Origin: Eledone cirrhosa
Taxonomy: Eukaryota
DNA: 64,000 nt
Assembly: GCA_964016885.1 (NCBI GenBank)
Contig: OZ024747.1
Span: forward strand, 3,162,001 to 3,226,000
Reading direction: 5' to 3'
A program made the position numbers and the translations under genes. Below, one piece after another: positions 17,020 to 59,897 of this stretch. The notes beneath the pieces were generated by a model, which saw only the letters and a program-made list of their open reading frames with translations, ran no database searches and had not been told where the DNA came from. Numbering within the stretch: position 1 is the stretch's first letter; every line of letters starts with the position of its first letter.

Positions 17020-18039
17020 ATGTATATATATATGTGTGTGTGTGTGTGTATTTTGACGTCAAAATGATGAAAGGCAAAGTTGACCTCGGCAGGATTTTAA
17101 CTTAGAGAGCAGAAAGTCGAAATGAATAACACAAAGCATTATATTCGATATTCTAATGACTCCTTCACCACCTTCCGAAACTCTTTATTGTTCATCAACT
17201 ATTATACTTTCTTCCTATAAAGAAGTCACTGAGTTATATAATAATATTTCTTCATACCCATAAGATGTAAAGATTTAGTGTGAAATGGAGTAGAATCAAG
17301 ATCTTTAGTGTAATCATTATACAGGGTGTAGCAAAGAGAATCATTTATTTATAATTGTTAGATATGCTCACTATGTAAATAACATAGAAATTATAAACAA
17401 GAATAAAACGTAATATTCAGATAAGTATTGGACAATTTACTGTATAATTATTTGGTAATATAGCCTTAATATAGCCTTGTTGATACACCCTATATATTGT
17501 ATAATATATAGTTTATTGGCAGTATAGGTAGTGTTGGGCAACATGTTTTGTGGCACAGTTACGTCCCTTTACATTCTGTGTTCAAATTCTGTTGAGTTTA
17601 GCTTCACCTTTCATCCTTATGGGGTCAATAAATTAAGTACCTGTAAGACACTCAGGTTGTTGAAACTGACTTTACCCTTCCCTTCAAATTATTGATCTTG
17701 TGCCTAAATCTGAAACTATGGTATATTGTATCTATTAATTTTCTTTTGTTAACTACGGTCACTCAGTATGCTATTATTTTTGGCAATAAGTAGATGTGCA
17801 CAACATCAGGGCCTGGTTGTTTATACAGGTTTAATATCTTGAATTTATTAAGTAGCATTATTCTAGACATGTTAACATTAAGTTAGAGTCATCCTTTATA
17901 AATATATTGATTATAGCTATAGACCTTAATTCTAATTCTAAAAAAAATACTGTTGAAACTCTCCTTCAGGGCAAGTTATTAAAGTAGCTTTTAGCTTGTC
18001 AGTTAGGTCAAGGAGTGGAAACAGAAATCTGATTTTCAA

Positions 18040-19680
18040 ACAACATAGTACTACTCCCACTGTTGACAACAAAAGGTTCCTCCCAACGTAGAAAAAGATT
18101 GTATGATGCATGCATGTGAAGTGTGATGCTGCATGGTAGTGAAACATGGGCAGTGACTGTAGAAGACATGTGATGCTACGTGGTAGTGAAACATGGGCTG
18201 TGACTGCAGAGGACATGTGGTACTGCATGGTAGTGAAACATTGGCAGTGACTGTATAAGACATGTGATGCTACATGGTAGTGAAACATGGGCAGTGACTG
18301 TAGAAGACATGTGATGCTACATGGTAGTGAAACATGGGCAGTGACTGTAGAAGATATGTGATGCTACATGGTAGTGAAACATGGGCAGTGACTGTATAAG
18401 ACATGTGATGCTGCATGGTAGTGAAACATGGGCAGTGACTGTATAAGACATGTGATGCTGCATGGTAGTGAAACATGGGCAGTGACTGTATGACATGTGG
18501 TGCTGCATGGTAGTGAAACATGGGCAGTGACTGTAGAAGACATGTGATGCTACATGGTAGTGAAACATGGGCAGTGACTGTAGAAGACATGTGACGCTGC
18601 ATGGTAGTGAAACATGGGCAGTGACTGTAGAAGACATGTGATGCTACATGGTAGTGAAACATGGGCAGTGACTGTAGAAGACATGTGATGCTACATGGTA
18701 GTGAAACATAGGCAGTGACTGTAGAAGACATGTGATGATACATGGTAGTGAAACATGGGCAGTGACTGTAGAAGACATGTGGTACTGCATGGTAGTGAAA
18801 CATGGGCTGTGACTGCAGAGGACATGTGGTACTGCATGGTAGTGAAACATGGGCAGTGACTGTAGAAGACATGTGATGCTGCATGGTAGTGAAACATGGG
18901 CAGTGACTGTATAAGACATGTGGTGCTGCATGGTAGTGAAACATGGGCAGTCACTGTAGAAGACATGTGATGCTACATGGTAGTGAAACATGGGCAGTGA
19001 CTGTAGAAGACATGTGACGCTGCATGGTAGTGAAACATGGGCAGTGACTGTAGAAGACATGTGATGCTACATGGTAGTGAAACATGGGCAGTGACTGTAG
19101 AAGACATGTGATGCTACATGGTAGTGAAACATGGGCAGTGACTGTAGAAGACATGTGATGCTACATGGTAGTGAAACATGGGCAGTGACTGTAGAAGACA
19201 TGTGGTACTGCATGGTAGTGAAACATGGGCTGTGACTGCAGAGGACATGTGGTACTGCATGGTAGTGAAACATGGGCAGTGACTGTAGAAGACATGTGGT
19301 GCTGCATGGTAGTGAAACATGGGCAGTGACTGTAGAAGACATGTGGTGCTGCATGGTAGTGAAACATGGGCAGTGACTGTAGAAGACATGTGATGTTGCA
19401 TGGTAGTGAAACATGGGCAGTGACTGCAGAAGACATGTGCTGCTACATGGTAGTGAAACATGGGCTGTGACTGCAGAGGACATGTGGTGCTACATGGTGG
19501 TGAAACATGGGCAGTGACTGTAGAAGACATGCAGAGACTGGAGAGAAATGAAGCAACCATGCTTCATTGGAGGTGTAACATAAATGTGAGAGAAAGACAG
19601 AGCATGGATGATCTGAGAGAGAAGCTGGGTTTAAAAGAAATCCAAGGTGGTGTGCAGGAGAGAAGATTGCATTGGTACTC
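18040..19680 (+). mobile_element. Decayed RTE C-terminal fragment hosting a 47-bp tandem array
   Basis: Left flank encodes LLPLLTTKG...RLYDAC; right flank continues EDMQRLERNEATMLHWRCNINVRERQS...ERRLHWY. Confidence 0.88.
18122..19531 (+). repeat. 47-bp minisatellite, ~30 copies, derived from RTE coding sequence
   Basis: Unit GTGATGCTGCATGGTAGTGAAACATGGGCAGTGACTGTAGAAGACAT encodes [15 protein letters not shown]. Confidence 0.95.

Positions 19681-20361: not shown

Positions 20362-20364
<3 letters not shown>
20028..20364 (-). mobile_element. Same SINE family, near full length
   Basis: Reverse complement of 16618-16959; TA-repeat flanks. Confidence 0.9.
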
Positions 20365-20391
<27 letters not shown>

Positions 20392-20398
<7 letters not shown>

Positions 20399-20817
20399 AA
20401 GTTAAATAAAAGTCAAATGATTAAAATTTAGCTTCGTTTATTACTGCTATATATATTTCAGTGACAGCCATCTTTGGCTGTGACCTCTTCAGGCAGTTTG
20501 AATTAGTATGGTATAGACAAGTACATATGTTGTTCAGGTGTATGATATTGTCAATACTCTGATATGCCCAGTTCCTTGCTGGGTTGTTAATTCACTGGGG
20601 AACTGGAGTCATAGTGAATTAACAACCCAGCAAGGAACTGGGCATATCAGAGTATTGACAATATCATACACCTAAACAACATATGTACTTGTCTATACCA
20701 TACTAATTCAAACTGCCTGAAGAGGTCACAGCCAAAGATGGCTGTCACTGAAATATATATAGCAGTAATAAACGAAGCTAAATTTTAATCATTTGACTTT
20801 TATTTAACTTTATTTTA
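20392..20817. repeat. Foldback: 205-bp inverted arms, 16-bp spacer (Penelope-like pLTR derivative)
   Basis: 20392-20596 is the reverse complement of 20613-20817 with one mismatch seen; the + strand element continues unpaired to ~20915; (TA)n on both sides. Confidence 0.93.
20712..20766 (+). ncRNA. Type I minimal hammerhead ribozyme (mirror copy 20443-20497, minus)
   Basis: ACUGC-CUGAAGA-GGUCACAGCC AAAGAU GGCUGUCACU-GAAA-UAUAUA-UA-GCAGU: perfect 5-bp stem I, long stem II, intact core. Confidence 0.85.
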
Positions 20818-21013
20818 CACTACTCCGGAGTAACCAAACCAACCTGCGCACTTCGTCGAGTGCTCCAGCCTGCATACTGAGGTGTTGGTATACAACCAAC
20901 ATAAACTCTAAATCTATATATATATATATATAGTTATACTTTGGGAGGGTCATGTTGCCAATAAGAAACACACGCACTCGTTGCTTTCACTCCAATTTAT
21001 TATAAGGTAAATT

Positions 21014-33444: not shown

Positions 33445-36400
33445 TCATCATCATCATCATCATCAACGTTTAACGTCCGTGTTCCACGCTTGCATGGGTT
33501 TGGACGGGGGTAGTCCCACTTGAGGCAAGAGTGATTGTCTTGCTCGCATAGGACTGTCTGGCAGGTTTTCTACAGTTGGATGCCCTTCCTAACACCAACC
33601 ACATTTACAGTGTGGGTCTGGGAGGTTTTTACCGTGTTGCCTACACGGCCACATTACAGCGTGGACTGTGTGTTTTTTTGTCGTGACACCTACACGATCT
33701 CATTTGTTTCGGCCTCGATGGCGCGGCACCAACATAACTTTACATAGAACGGGGTGGTGTGGATGGGGTGGTGGTGGTGGGACGGGGTGTATTTTGTTAG
33801 AGATGCCTACTGGCTGGAGTAGGTTTTACTATATATTTAGGTAAGGCGGGTCTTCTCTGTTACTGAGTACCGCCAAAGGTCTCGGTCCAGTGACATTGTC
33901 TTGGAGAGGTGTAAGTGTGTGAGGTCGGAGTTTATCAGCTCATCCCATGTTTTTCTAGGTCTGCCTATTCCGTGGCTACCGTCTATCTTTATTGCCCTGC
34001 ACTTTGTTATACAGCTATCGACTTTCATGCGCATCACGTGTCCATACCAACGCAGCCTTCTCTCGAGTAAACAACATCTGATCCCTCTTATCTCTAATTT
34101 TTTCCTTAGTTCGTTTATGCTTTGCCGTTCACGTATATTACTGTTACACATCCAGCGGAGCATGCAAGCTTCGTTCCTCTCTAGTCTGCGTATATCCTCT
34201 GCACACAATGCCCAGGTCTCACTACCATGCAACATTGCTGTTCGTATGCAGGCATCGTACAACCTGCCTTTCATTTTTAGGGAGAACCTTTTAGCAGCTA
34301 ATAGTGGTATAAGCTCTCTGAACTTTTTCCAACCAGTTCTGACTCTAGCTACAGTACTTTCAGAGCACCCTCCCCCACTGCTGATTTTATCGCCCAGGTA
34401 ACGGAAGCTGTTCACTATTTCTATAGAACCCTCTGCGCAATTGAAAGAGCTAGTATTTTGTGGGCACTTGCTGCTACTTATTGCACCAGAACACCGGCCA
34501 CATGTAAAATCTATGTTCTTAGTTAGCTTACCTGTGATCCCACTACATCTTTTATGCACCCATACTTTGCATTTAGGACATAAAATGGAGTTTCTACCTA
34601 CGCCTTTCCTACACACCGAGCACGACCATTTCCCAGAAGGGACCGCCGCCTTGTTTTCTTTCCTACAAACTAGAACTTTGGTCTTAGCCAGGTTAATTTT
34701 AAGTCCTTTTGACTCTAGGCTGTGCTTCCATGTTTGGAATTTCTTCTCTAGCTCGGCCATTGATTCCGCTATGAGTGTCAGGTCGTCTGCGTATAGGAGT
34801 TCCCATGGGCAGCCTGTCTTGAACTCCTCTGTTATAGCCTGAAGGGCAATAATAAATAGTAGGGGGCTGAGAACAGAGCCCTGATGGACGCCAACTTTTA
34901 CGCTAAACTCTTCACTATATTCGTTGTTAATTCTAACCTTGCTGACTGTTTCTTTATACATGGCTTGTATAGCCCTCACAAGCCATTCGTCAACGCCTAG
35001 TTTTCTAAGAGCCCACCAGATAATGGAGCGGGGGACTCTGTCGAAGGCTTTCTCCAGGTCGACAAAAGCTAAGTAGAGGGGTCTACCTTTAGCTAGGTAC
35101 TTCTCCTGTAGTTGTCGTACTATGAAAAGGGCGTCTGTGGTGCTTTTGCCTGACACAAAACCGAACTGCATTTCATCTAGGTCAATTCTCTCTCTGATTA
35201 GTTGCGCTATTACTTTTTCCGTGACCTTCATGACCTGGTCGATTAATTTAATGCCTCTATAGTTACTCCTATCTAGGGCGTCTCCTTTACCCTTATAACA
35301 GTTAACGATGATGCTGCTATGCCAGTCCTTCGGAACAACCCCATTCTGTACGACTTGGTTAACTATGCGGGTGACCATGGGGTGTCCCACCATGCCAGAT
35401 GCCTTCAGCATCTCAGCAACTATTTCCGAAGGCCCAGCCGCCTTACCCGTCTTCATATCCTTGATTGCCTTACTTATTATACTCCCCTCGACTAACACTG
35501 CTGGTCCCTCTATCGGGTCGATATGGGGGAGACTGTCTTTCTCCCATTTATTCTCCTCATTTAGTAGCCTTTCATAGTGACACTTCCAAGCTACCTTCTT
35601 ATCAGTGTCGGTGATGGCAAGTATGCCATCATCGTTAAGTACACACTTCTCCCCGACAATATCACGGTTTTCCTTGACGCATTGCCTGGCAATCCTGAAC
35701 ACCTCACGTTTTTGGTCATCGCGTTGTAGAACATGCTTGAACTTTCTTTCCTCAGCTTCCCTTCTTGCTAAGTACACTTCTCTCCTAGCTTCCCTCCTGG
35801 CCACTTGATAGTCTACTCTACTTCCCCCATCCCGCCATACTTTCCAAGCCTGCTTTTTGGCCTTAATTGACCCGTCCACCCTACTGTTCCACCACCAAGT
35901 TACTCTCCTCCTGCCTACAGGCCTGCTCCAGCCACAGACTTCGTCTGTCGCCAACAGCAGGTTTGCTTTCAGAAATTCCCACTGTCCCTCTATATTGTCC
36001 GATTCTAGATGCTCTTCCTTACTGTCGAAAGCATCAAGTAATATGCTTTGAAATTTATTTCTGGCTGTGGGGTCCTTTAGTTTCCATATTTTCCTCCTGA
36101 GGATAGTCCTCTTCTGCTGTCGAGTACGTCTCGTCCTGACTATGAGGTCGCTAATTATCAGTCTATGTTGGGAGGTGCATTCTTCATGGGGGAGGGATTT
36201 AGTGTTTACAACAGACACTCTGTCACGTCTTCTGGTAAGGATATAATCTACCTGGCTTGTGTGTTCCCCTGATCTATAGGTGATCAGGTGATTGTCACGT
36301 TTTTTGAAGTTAGTGTTACAGATAGTTAGGTTATTTGCATCACAGAATTCCAGGATTCTGGAGCCTCCCTCATTTCTAGTACCAAACCCATAGCCTCCAT

Positions 36401-36985
36401 GGATTTCGTCGTAGCCGTCACAATGTTGTCCAACGTGACCATTTAGGTCGCCTGCAATAATTATATAGTCACTGTCAGATATTTGGGAGGTAGTTAGCAA
36501 CAGTGTCTCATAGAATCTGTCTTTTATAGTGCCGGGCAGTCCGGATTGGGGTGCGTACGCAGATATTACTGTCACCGTAGTTTTATTGAGGAGAAGTCTT
36601 ATTTTAATTATTCTGTCGTTCACTCTATTTACGTCTATTATCTTATCTGCCCACTTTTCTGCTACCATGATTCCTACTCCACCCAGCCCATCGTCGTTTC
36701 CCACCCAGAAAAGCTTATAACATCGTTTTTTACCCTCAATGAATCTAGCAGACCCACCCCTCCACCTGGTCTCTTGAATGCAACAAACATCGACCTCCTT
36801 ACGTTCAAGCATTTCTACAACCTCGTTAGCGCGACCCTTTAGGGTGCCCACATTTATGGTACCAACTCTGAAGTTTTGGGTTGCGTTTGGAGGGTGGGGG
36901 TGGTGGGGGGCGGGGGGAGATAGGGTTACGTTAGCCATCCGCGGACGAAACAAAGAGGAGTGCTCGCATTCTCGTCCACGAGGTG
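33445..36985 (-). mobile_element. Near full-length RTE LINE (subfamily 'C'), ~390 bp 3' UTR and (GAT)n tail, in a (TA)n tract
   Basis: Intact ORF; 3' UTR 33445-33836 ends ...CGGACGTTAAACG-TT-(GAT)n; both flanks are TA microsatellite. The frame stays open upstream of the ATG to the flank, so the true 5' UTR is probably lost. Confidence 0.92.
33837..36938 (-). CDS. RTE-clade LINE polyprotein: AP endonuclease + reverse transcriptase + PHD-like Zn finger (intact, ~1033 aa from first ATG)
   Basis: Uninterrupted ORF (track starts at TTG 36953; first ATG 36938). APE motifs GTINVGTL, CIQETRW, SAYAPQ, AGDLNGH, QVDYIL, SQHRL; RT motifs YRGIKL, QFGF, FVDLEKAFD, GVHQGSVLSP, YADD; RTE-type C-terminus LHGSETW...[11 protein letters not shown]...GRPRKTW. 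Confidence 0.95.
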   Translation of the reverse strand: MANVTLSPPAPHHPHPPNATQNFRVGTINVGTLKGRANEVVEMLERKEVDVCCIQETRWRGGSARFIEGKKRCYKLFWVGNDDGLGGVGIMVAEKWADKIIDVNRVNDRIIKIRLLLNKTTVTVISAYAPQSGLPGTIKDRFYETLLLTTSQISDSDYIIIAGDLNGHVGQHCDGYDEIHGGYGFGTRNEGGSRILEFCDANNLTICNTNFKKRDNHLITYRSGEHTSQVDYILTRRRDRVSVVNTKSLPHEECTSQHRLIISDLIVRTRRTRQQKRTILRRKIWKLKDPTARNKFQSILLDAFDSKEEHLESDNIEGQWEFLKANLLLATDEVCGWSRPVGRRRVTWWWNSRVDGSIKAKKQAWKVWRDGGSRVDYQVARREARREVYLARREAEERKFKHVLQRDDQKREVFRIARQCVKENRDIVGEKCVLNDDGILAITDTDKKVAWKCHYERLLNEENKWEKDSLPHIDPIEGPAVLVEGSIISKAIKDMKTGKAAGPSEIVAEMLKASGMVGHPMVTRIVNQVVQNGVVPKDWHSSIIVNCYKGKGDALDRSNYRGIKLIDQVMKVTEKVIAQLIRERIDLDEMQFGFVSGKSTTDALFIVRQLQEKYLAKGRPLYLAFVDLEKAFDRVPRSIIWWALRKLGVDEWLVRAIQAMYKETVSKVRINNEYSEEFSVKVGVHQGSVLSPLLFIIALQAITEEFKTGCPWELLYADDLTLIAESMAELEKKFQTWKHSLESKGLKINLAKTKVLVCRKENKAAVPSGKWSCSVCRKGVGRNSILCPKCKVWVHKRCSGITGKLTKNIDFTCGRCSGAISSSKCPQNTSSFNCAEGSIEIVNSFRYLGDKISSGGGCSESTVARVRTGWKKFRELIPLLAAKRFSLKMKGRLYDACIRTAMLHGSETWALCAEDIRRLERNEACMLRWMCNSNIRERQSINELRKKLEIRGIRCCLLERRLRWYGHVMRMKVDSCITKCRAIKIDGSHGIGRPRKTWDELINSDLTHLHLSKTMSLDRDLWRYSVTEKTRLT

Positions 36986-37123
36986 ATATATATATATATA
37001 TATATGAATATATATTTATATATATATATATGAATATATATTTATATATATATATATGAATATATATTTATATATATATATATGAATATATATTTATATA
37101 TATATATATATATATGAATATAT

Positions 37124-59564: not shown

Positions 59565-59897
59565 GGAGGCACATGGCTTAGTGGTTAGAGCATTGGCCTT
59601 GCAATCGAAAGGTTGTGAGTTCAATTCTCAGACTGGGTGATGTGTTGTTTCCTTGGGCAAGACACTTTATTCACATTGCTCCAGTTTACTCAGCTGTAGA
59701 AATGAGATGATAGGGACCCCAGTCATTCCACTGTAAAGTAGACGTGTAGGTGCCATGGCAAAAAAGCACCCAGCACTCACTGTAAATGAGGTTGGTGTTA
59801 GGAAGGGCATCCAGCTGTAGATATCTAGCCAGAATCAGTTCCCATCCCACCCTTGCAAGCAGGGAAAAGCGGATGTAAAATGATGATGATGATGATG
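59565..59897 (+). mobile_element. Same SINE family, full length
   Basis: Matches 16618-16959; short GAGGCACAT duplication at its 5' end. Confidence 0.9.

What the first reader, a model, noticed from the sequence alone, without database searches (positions are those of the whole stretch)
20392..20915. 205-bp near-perfect foldback holding a canonical hammerhead and its antisense
The arms differ at one visible position, so the inversion is young. The ribozyme core is intact (ACUGC/GCAGU stem I, 10-bp stem II with one mismatch, palindromic AUAUAUAU stem III suited to dimer cleavage). The 16-nt spacer GGGGAACTGGAGTCAT resembles arm sequence GGAACTGGGCAT nearby, suggesting a template switch during reverse transcription. 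Inference: in a read-through RNA the antisense arm comes first and would trap the ribozyme in ~200 bp of dsRNA, a built-in off switch and a likely ADAR/Dicer substrate (A-to-I editing is extensive in coleoid cephalopods).
Basis: partly seen in the sequence, partly recalled or inferred. Interest (0 to 1): 0.75.

Follow-up and report, generated by a model that had tools for sequence, protein, structure and literature searches.

The report
Head-to-head Penelope retrotransposon stub with hammerhead
This foldback is a short, head-to-head fragment of a young Penelope-like jumping gene whose ribozyme-bearing end occurs about 5,800 times in this genome; the single copy is ordinary, but the fixed start and stop points shared by its sister copies likely record how these elements copy themselves and, tentatively, that their ribozyme sometimes cuts in the animal.

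Summary
The foldback and the type I hammerhead are real. They are the 3' pseudo-LTR of a young Hydra-clade Penelope-like element (PLE), inserted head-to-head in (TA)n. A sister copy has an intact 892-aa RT/GIY-YIG ORF. A 20-mer beside the ribozyme has 5,779 exact matches, and 19 close inverted pairs occur among the first 100 arms sampled. The 16-nt 'spacer' is simply the element's own upstream sequence, so the left arm is 221 nt. Inverted 5'-truncated copies with a one-sided tail are textbook PLE features. The off-switch/ADAR idea has no support here: no host exon was seen, no RNA run was available, and copies show no A>G excess. The family statistics are the interesting part. Arms end at two fixed 3' sites 98 nt apart, one of each in 16 of 19 pairs. 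34 of 100 arms stop at one 5' site, at the base of a hairpin, and 241 loci are perfect palindromes there; this is likely the RNA 5' end. A small class of mini-insertions starts at the predicted hammerhead cut, a possible footprint of in vivo cleavage.

The parts
20364..20391 (.). (TA)n target microsatellite, left flank
   Evidence: 95 of 100 sampled arms end in TA/CT repeats
20392..20612 (-). Inverted 5'-truncated pLTR copy, 221 nt (element q-15 to q205, where q1 = 20613); ends at the family's short 3' end
20597..20612 (-). The 'spacer': element sequence q-15 to q0, unpaired only because the right arm lacks it
20562..20612 (-). 5' hairpin of the element (q-17 to q35), lacking its first 1-2 nt; the family's strong 5' stop lies at its base
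20443..20497 (-). Type I hammerhead of the inverted arm, predicted cut after 20448
20613..20915 (+). Forward 5'-truncated pLTR copy, q1 to q303; ends at the family's long 3' end
20712..20766 (+). Type I hammerhead, 2-bp palindromic stem III, predicted cut after A20761
20818..20915 (+). 98-nt one-sided 'tail' between the two fixed 3' ends; folds on its own (z -2.4)
20916..20932 (.). (TA)n target microsatellite, right flank

Best explanation
This is a doubly 5'-truncated, head-to-head insertion of the hammerhead-bearing pseudo-LTR of a young Hydra-clade Penelope-like retrotransposon in a (TA)n tract, likely made by two reverse-transcription events, one primed from each cut strand of the target. 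Shown: family identity, copy number, two fixed 3' ends 98 nt apart used one each per insertion, and a fixed 5' stop at q-17. Inferred: the GIY-YIG domain nicks both strands of (TA)n; RT starts inside uncut sense RNA at q205 from one strand and at q303 from the other; both cDNAs run to, or fall off near, the RNA 5' end (q-17, likely the start site of the pLTR promoter); and they join by microhomology, a self-complementary ATAT when both are complete. In this copy the arms stopped at q-15/-16 and q1. The antisense arm is a by-product, not an evolved switch. The ribozyme would cut mainly as a dimer in tandem transcripts.
For: L052 holds an 892-aa ORF with RT (YRDD) and C-terminal GIY-YIG upstream of the same 303 nt. 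All 150 scored EN matches are at least 97% identical. There are 5,779 exact 20-mer matches, control 0. 3' ends of 100 arms: 50 at q197-207, 46 at q291-308, 2 run into the ORF, 2 elsewhere. 16 of 19 close pairs are short+long (16 of 18 without the ORF run-on, p=0.0007). In ORF-bearing insertions with both ends visible, 11 of 12 are short+long, and the ORF-bearing arm has the short end in 6 and the long end in 5 (read), so one arm is not simply a copy of the other. 5' ends: 34 of 100 at q-20 to -15 against about 1.1 expected; 241 exact palindromic junctions there. Arms of a pair differ by 1.3%, random arms by 4.6%. Literature: inverted truncated copy plus tail is typical (PMC8557442, PMC3846280, PMC2377424); two internal RT starts define the tail and hammerhead cleavage is not needed in vitro (PMC11167929).
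Against: No RNA data, so the RNA 5' end and any cleavage are untested. 0 of 8 ORF-bearing copies that reach q-14 in their upstream pLTR stop at q-17, against 34 of 68 sampled arms (p=0.007), so long copies seem to come from another RNA class; this is unexplained. The tail is 98 nt, against 30-40 in the papers. 2 of 19 pairs have two ends of the same class. Arkhipova et al. (PMC3846280) read such palindromes as self-priming on an antisense template. The sample is the first 100 exact hits on one contig and leans to young copies.
Confidence: 0.8

Rival explanations
1. Snap-back: one cDNA started at q303, folded back at its 3' end and copied itself, and the endonuclease or repair cut the second arm at q205.
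For: 241 perfect palindromic junctions on an 8-bp palindrome; near-identical arms; the tail has been ascribed to EN resolution (PMC8557442) and palindromes to self-priming (PMC3846280).
Against: Six ORF-bearing insertions have the long arm ending at q205 and a shorter inverted arm ending at q303, which a self-copy cannot give. Many short-end arms have no partner within 1 kb, and paired arms often start far apart, e.g. q85/q-2.
Confidence: 0.12
2. One reading: the foldback works as an off switch that traps the ribozyme in dsRNA and feeds ADAR/Dicer.
For: The duplex is very stable if transcribed. A. vaga Penelopes give antisense small RNAs (PMC3846280, passage).
Against: No host exon seen; no A>G excess or clusters in 100 arms (this tests only retrotransposed templates); junctions vary and many arms are unpaired; a promoter inside the pLTR would fire outward and leave out the antisense arm (inference from PMC2377424).
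Confidence: 0.05
3. The q-17 stop is not a transcription start but the cut of a second, variant ribozyme or of a nuclease acting at the base of the 5' hairpin.
For: In the youngest subfamily q-17 follows GAAA, a 5-bp stem and UC, and precedes a 14-bp hairpin, which resembles a type II hammerhead. The five common variants in the hairpin all fall in unpaired positions.
Against: No stem II; only 4 of 6 core bases follow the hairpin; the GAAA is shifted or lost in most subfamilies, including the intact-ORF copy L052; no Rfam ribozyme hit. q-17 is the A of a TCA, an initiator-like motif (motif recalled).
Confidence: 0.1
4. Assembly or long-read foldback artefact.
For: No read spanning this locus was available.
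Against: The same architecture, with fixed element-defined ends and different junctions, recurs at many loci (19 of 30; 19 pairs). The arms differ at one base.
Confidence: 0.02

Closest known systems
Hydra-clade PLEs, incl. Hydra-1_Obim of Octopus bimaculoides (Craig et al. 2021, PMC8557442)
   Same: C-terminal GIY-YIG, RWK, DKT, CxCX5C linker, CxxC and CxH motifs, canonical hammerhead, (TA)n targets.
   Different: About 4.1 kb and 892 aa with two low-complexity inserts and a 1.4-kb 3' region, against under 3 kb; clear pLTRs; 98-nt tail; a different hammerhead sequence from Hydra-1_Obim.
Penelope (D. virilis) and A. vaga Pen2a inverted-pLTR insertions (PMC2377424, PMC3846280)
   Same: Inverted 5'-truncated copy, one-sided tail, palindromic junctions.
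   Different: Here many insertions are pLTR-only stubs with one fixed 5' stop; the tail is about three times longer.
PAc Poseidon of Anolis (PMC11167929)
   Same: Two fixed 3' ends just downstream of the hammerhead, AT-rich targets, copying through the uncut ribozyme.
   Different: Here both sites lie upstream of the ATG; the one-short-one-long pairing and starts at the cut site were not reported in the half of the paper read.
Non-LTR retrozymes (10.64898/2026.07.22.740005)
   Same: Non-coding, PLE-derived, type I hammerhead.
   Different: Retrozymes are head-to-tail tandem arrays; these are head-to-head pairs or solos.
L1 twin priming (recalled, no call)
   Same: Both target strands prime cDNA, giving an inversion.
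   Different: L1 inversions cover non-overlapping parts of one RNA; here both arms copy the same stretch.

Membership tests
Penelope-like element (EN+) | Single ORF with RT and GIY-YIG endonuclease | tested here: met
   892-aa ORF in L052. Pfam gave no hit on three fragments and only sub-threshold GIY-YIG hits on 2 of 6 homologs. Atlas neighbours carry GIY-YIG and HTH_animal. Matches the Hydra alignment by eye.
Penelope-like element (EN+) | pLTRs from partial tandems | tested here: met
   19 of 20 ORF loci have a partial or full pLTR upstream by BLAST; L059 has only a few bases.
Penelope-like element (EN+) | Inverted 5'-truncated copy and one-sided tail | tested here: met
   tail 98 nt rather than 30-40
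Penelope-like element (EN+) | Hammerhead in the pLTR | tested here: met
   core intact in 76 of 92 arms
Hydra clade | RWK, DKT, CxCX5C linker, CxxC and CxH around the conserved E and N | tested here: met
Hydra clade | Insertion into (TA)n | tested here: met
   95 of 100 arms
Hydra clade | Short (<3 kb; stated as general, not strict) | tested here: not met
   about 4.1 kb
Hydra clade | RT phylogeny groups with Hydra references | not tested
   Reference proteins were not held as session sequences; compared by eye only.
Type I hammerhead ribozyme | CUGAnGA, GAAA and UH with stems I-III | tested here: met
   position 11.1 is U here and the canonical C in 17 of 91 arms
Type I hammerhead ribozyme | Self-cleavage | not testable with these tools
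   Only an indirect genomic footprint.
Non-LTR retrozyme | Head-to-tail tandem units each with a hammerhead | tested here: not met
   Head-to-head pair.
Naiad PLE | N-terminal EN, no canonical hammerhead | tested here: not met
   EN is C-terminal and the hammerhead is canonical.

The most novel reading that the evidence does not exclude
The thousands of stubs are a fossil record of the PLE reaction: each insertion is made by two RT starts, one per target strand, at two sites bracketing a 98-nt structured RNA domain; cDNAs run off at a fixed RNA 5' end and join through ATAT; and a minority run off exactly at the hammerhead cut, giving genomic evidence that an animal PLE hammerhead cleaves in vivo and that the cut RNA is still inserted. 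The q-17 to q303 unit may also spread as a self-transcribing non-autonomous element.
Probability: 0.4. Interest if true: 0.65.

Novelty: new member of a known kind. Interest (0 to 1): 0.4.

Why it matters
The locus itself is one ordinary transposon stub. [quoted passage not shown] A young family with intact ORFs, about 5,800 arms and base-exact start and stop sites makes both questions testable.

Tried and rejected
Rfam: no ribozyme family; the miRNA hits are generic hairpin matches below gathering score. Pfam on three ORF fragments and PDB by sequence: nothing. No RNA holder listed; contigs laid on the locus and on L055 could not span the locus or show RNA ends, and their depths were not used. 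DNA searches with two short queries returned nothing, probably because very common words are skipped, so the 5'-end profile of the second family was not obtained. The 'q-80 stop' (22 arms at q-80 to -75) is an artefact of an indel between subfamilies; these arms were counted as running upstream. L066 looked like a cut-to-cut monomer but is an internal deletion. A second hammerhead at q-17 was largely rejected. Microhomology with (TA)n as the cause of the q-17 stop was rejected: the 9-nt AT run at q141-149 stops 1 of 100 arms, and the equal 8-bp palindrome at q67-74 gives about 7 perfect or near-perfect junctions (a longer and stricter pattern) against 241. Earlier findings: none. No structure or complex was predicted.

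Full report
Coordinates: q1 = window 20613; q150 is the first base after the predicted cut; q205 = 20817; q303 = 20915.

Observation. The arms, the single mismatch, the spacer and the hammerhead are as described. The ribozyme has a 5-bp stem I, CUGAAGA, a stem II with 9 of 10 pairs, GAAA, and a 2-bp stem III that costs 3.4 kcal/mol as a monomer, while its palindrome can pair 8 bp between two copies. This is the dimer type described for PLEs (PMC4209133 and PMC6765202, passages). Rfam did not recognise it.

Identity. The right arm plus tail gave 504 candidates in the own genome (3.0 Gb); all 40 scored matched at about 100%. 19 of 30 fetched loci have an inverted arm ending at q201-208. Copies extending upstream run through a long 3' region into a GIY-YIG domain. 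L052 has an intact 892-aa ORF with an inverted truncated copy and a partial pLTR upstream and a full pLTR downstream. The protein carries the Hydra-clade motifs and resembles the Hydra alignment, including Hydra-1_Obim, by eye. All 150 scored EN matches are at least 97% identical. The host fits an octopod (one search includes an O. bimaculoides hit), but I did not establish this.

The spacer is the reverse complement of q-15 to q0. So the insertion is an inverted q-15 to q205 joined, with at most 1 nt of overlap, to a forward q1 to q303, in (TA)n. The left-arm base at the mismatch matches neither family allele (A 50, C 29 among 79 arms read), so it is private to this copy.

Family statistics. 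A 20-mer just 3' of the cut matches 5,779 times. I fetched the first 100 listed hits, all on C1, and mapped their ends against natural copy L055. 3' ends: 50 short, 46 long, 2 into the ORF, 2 other. Of 19 head-to-head pairs within 1 kb, 16 are short+long, 1 long+long, 1 short+short and 1 runs into the ORF. That extrapolates to about 1,100 pairs. Among ORF-bearing insertions with both ends visible, 11 of 12 are short+long, in either polarity. The 98 nt between the ends fold on their own (z -2.4). This matches the two internal RT starts shown for PAc (PMC11167929) and suggests one start per target strand.

5' ends: 34 of 100 at q-20 to -15, 2 at q-23, 32 further upstream, 30 spread over q-14 to q149, and 2 at q150. 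The stop at q-17 is the first base of a 14-bp hairpin whose five common variants are all unpaired. It begins with ATAT, which explains both the 241 exact palindromic junctions and solo copies fused to (TA)n. An RNA 5' end is the simplest cause; Penelope's promoter lies in its pLTR (PMC2377424). Against this, 0 of 8 long copies that reach this point stop there. Long copies may derive from multimeric or circular RNA (inference).

Hammerhead footprint. 98 of 100 arms span the cut, so templates were mostly uncut. A gapped pattern found 24 matches (23 loci) with both arms ending near the cut. Of 46 arm ends read by hand, 11 are at q150 and 27 at q149-151, with none at q143-145 or q147-148. Thirteen such loci (12 chosen for these ends, plus L257) are complete mini-insertions of about 210 bp with one short and one long end, and three restart at q149-150 more than once. 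Caution: a control window at q63-86 also peaks (16 of 88 ends at each of two positions), though at longer microhomologies, whereas the q150 junctions have 0-2 nt and often filler bases. In a second PLE family with its own hammerhead, 9 of 100 arm ends (50 of 65 loci listed) fall exactly at its cut and 8 more loci are compatible, but microhomology peaks are as high or higher. The footprint is suggestive, about even odds.

No host exon was seen among ORFs of 110 aa or more in the window, only LINE fragments and satellites (short exons would be missed). Rare A>G changes are not in excess. Nothing here supports a selected off switch; incidental dsRNA in a read-through transcript remains possible.

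Literature seen: PMC11167929, parts 1-2 of 4; PMC8557442, passages, section 11 and supplement hits; PMC3846280, PMC2377424, PMC4209133 and PMC6765202, passages; bioRxiv 10.64898/2026.07.22.740005, part 1 of 5 (supplements closed). Searches listed no paper that, in what I read, reports the one-short-one-long rule, a fixed 5' stop or insertions starting at the hammerhead cut. The library lacks most subscription papers, and I did not read Arkhipova 2006 or 2017 or Lunse 2017.

Verdict: a real but ordinary PLE insertion, a new member of a known kind. Interest 0.4 rests on the family-level mechanistic signals, not on this locus.

Noticed in passing
L158-L168, L170, L171 (e.g. G000:C2:258901869 onward): Second young PLE family with the Hydra motifs (713-aa ORF, many intact copies), its own type I hammerhead in the pLTR and a multi-kb microsatellite 3' region.
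   Followed up: partly
L169:2999 and 3441 (G000:C2, about 31.679 Mb): 442-bp tandem units each with a type I hammerhead with palindromic stem III; looks like a non-LTR retrozyme.
   Followed up: no
window 18024-19540 and 21379 to at least 23540: 47-bp minisatellite that appears to be derived from an RTE-like LINE coding stretch, and a 28-30-bp satellite that shares a short stretch with the PLE arm.
   Followed up: no
window 33840-37067 (-): 1,076-aa open frame of an RTE-like LINE (family name recalled); many more fragments across the window.
   Followed up: no
window 59572-59635: tRNA-like Rfam hit, probably the head of a tRNA-derived SINE.
   Followed up: no
L048-L067 upstream pLTRs: None of 8 ORF-bearing copies reaching q-14 stops at the q-17 hot spot; unexplained.
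   Followed up: partly
P0018 residues about 470-620 and 690-750: Two low-complexity inserts keep the frame of the PLE ORF, like the N-rich inserts of A. vaga Penelopes.
   Followed up: no
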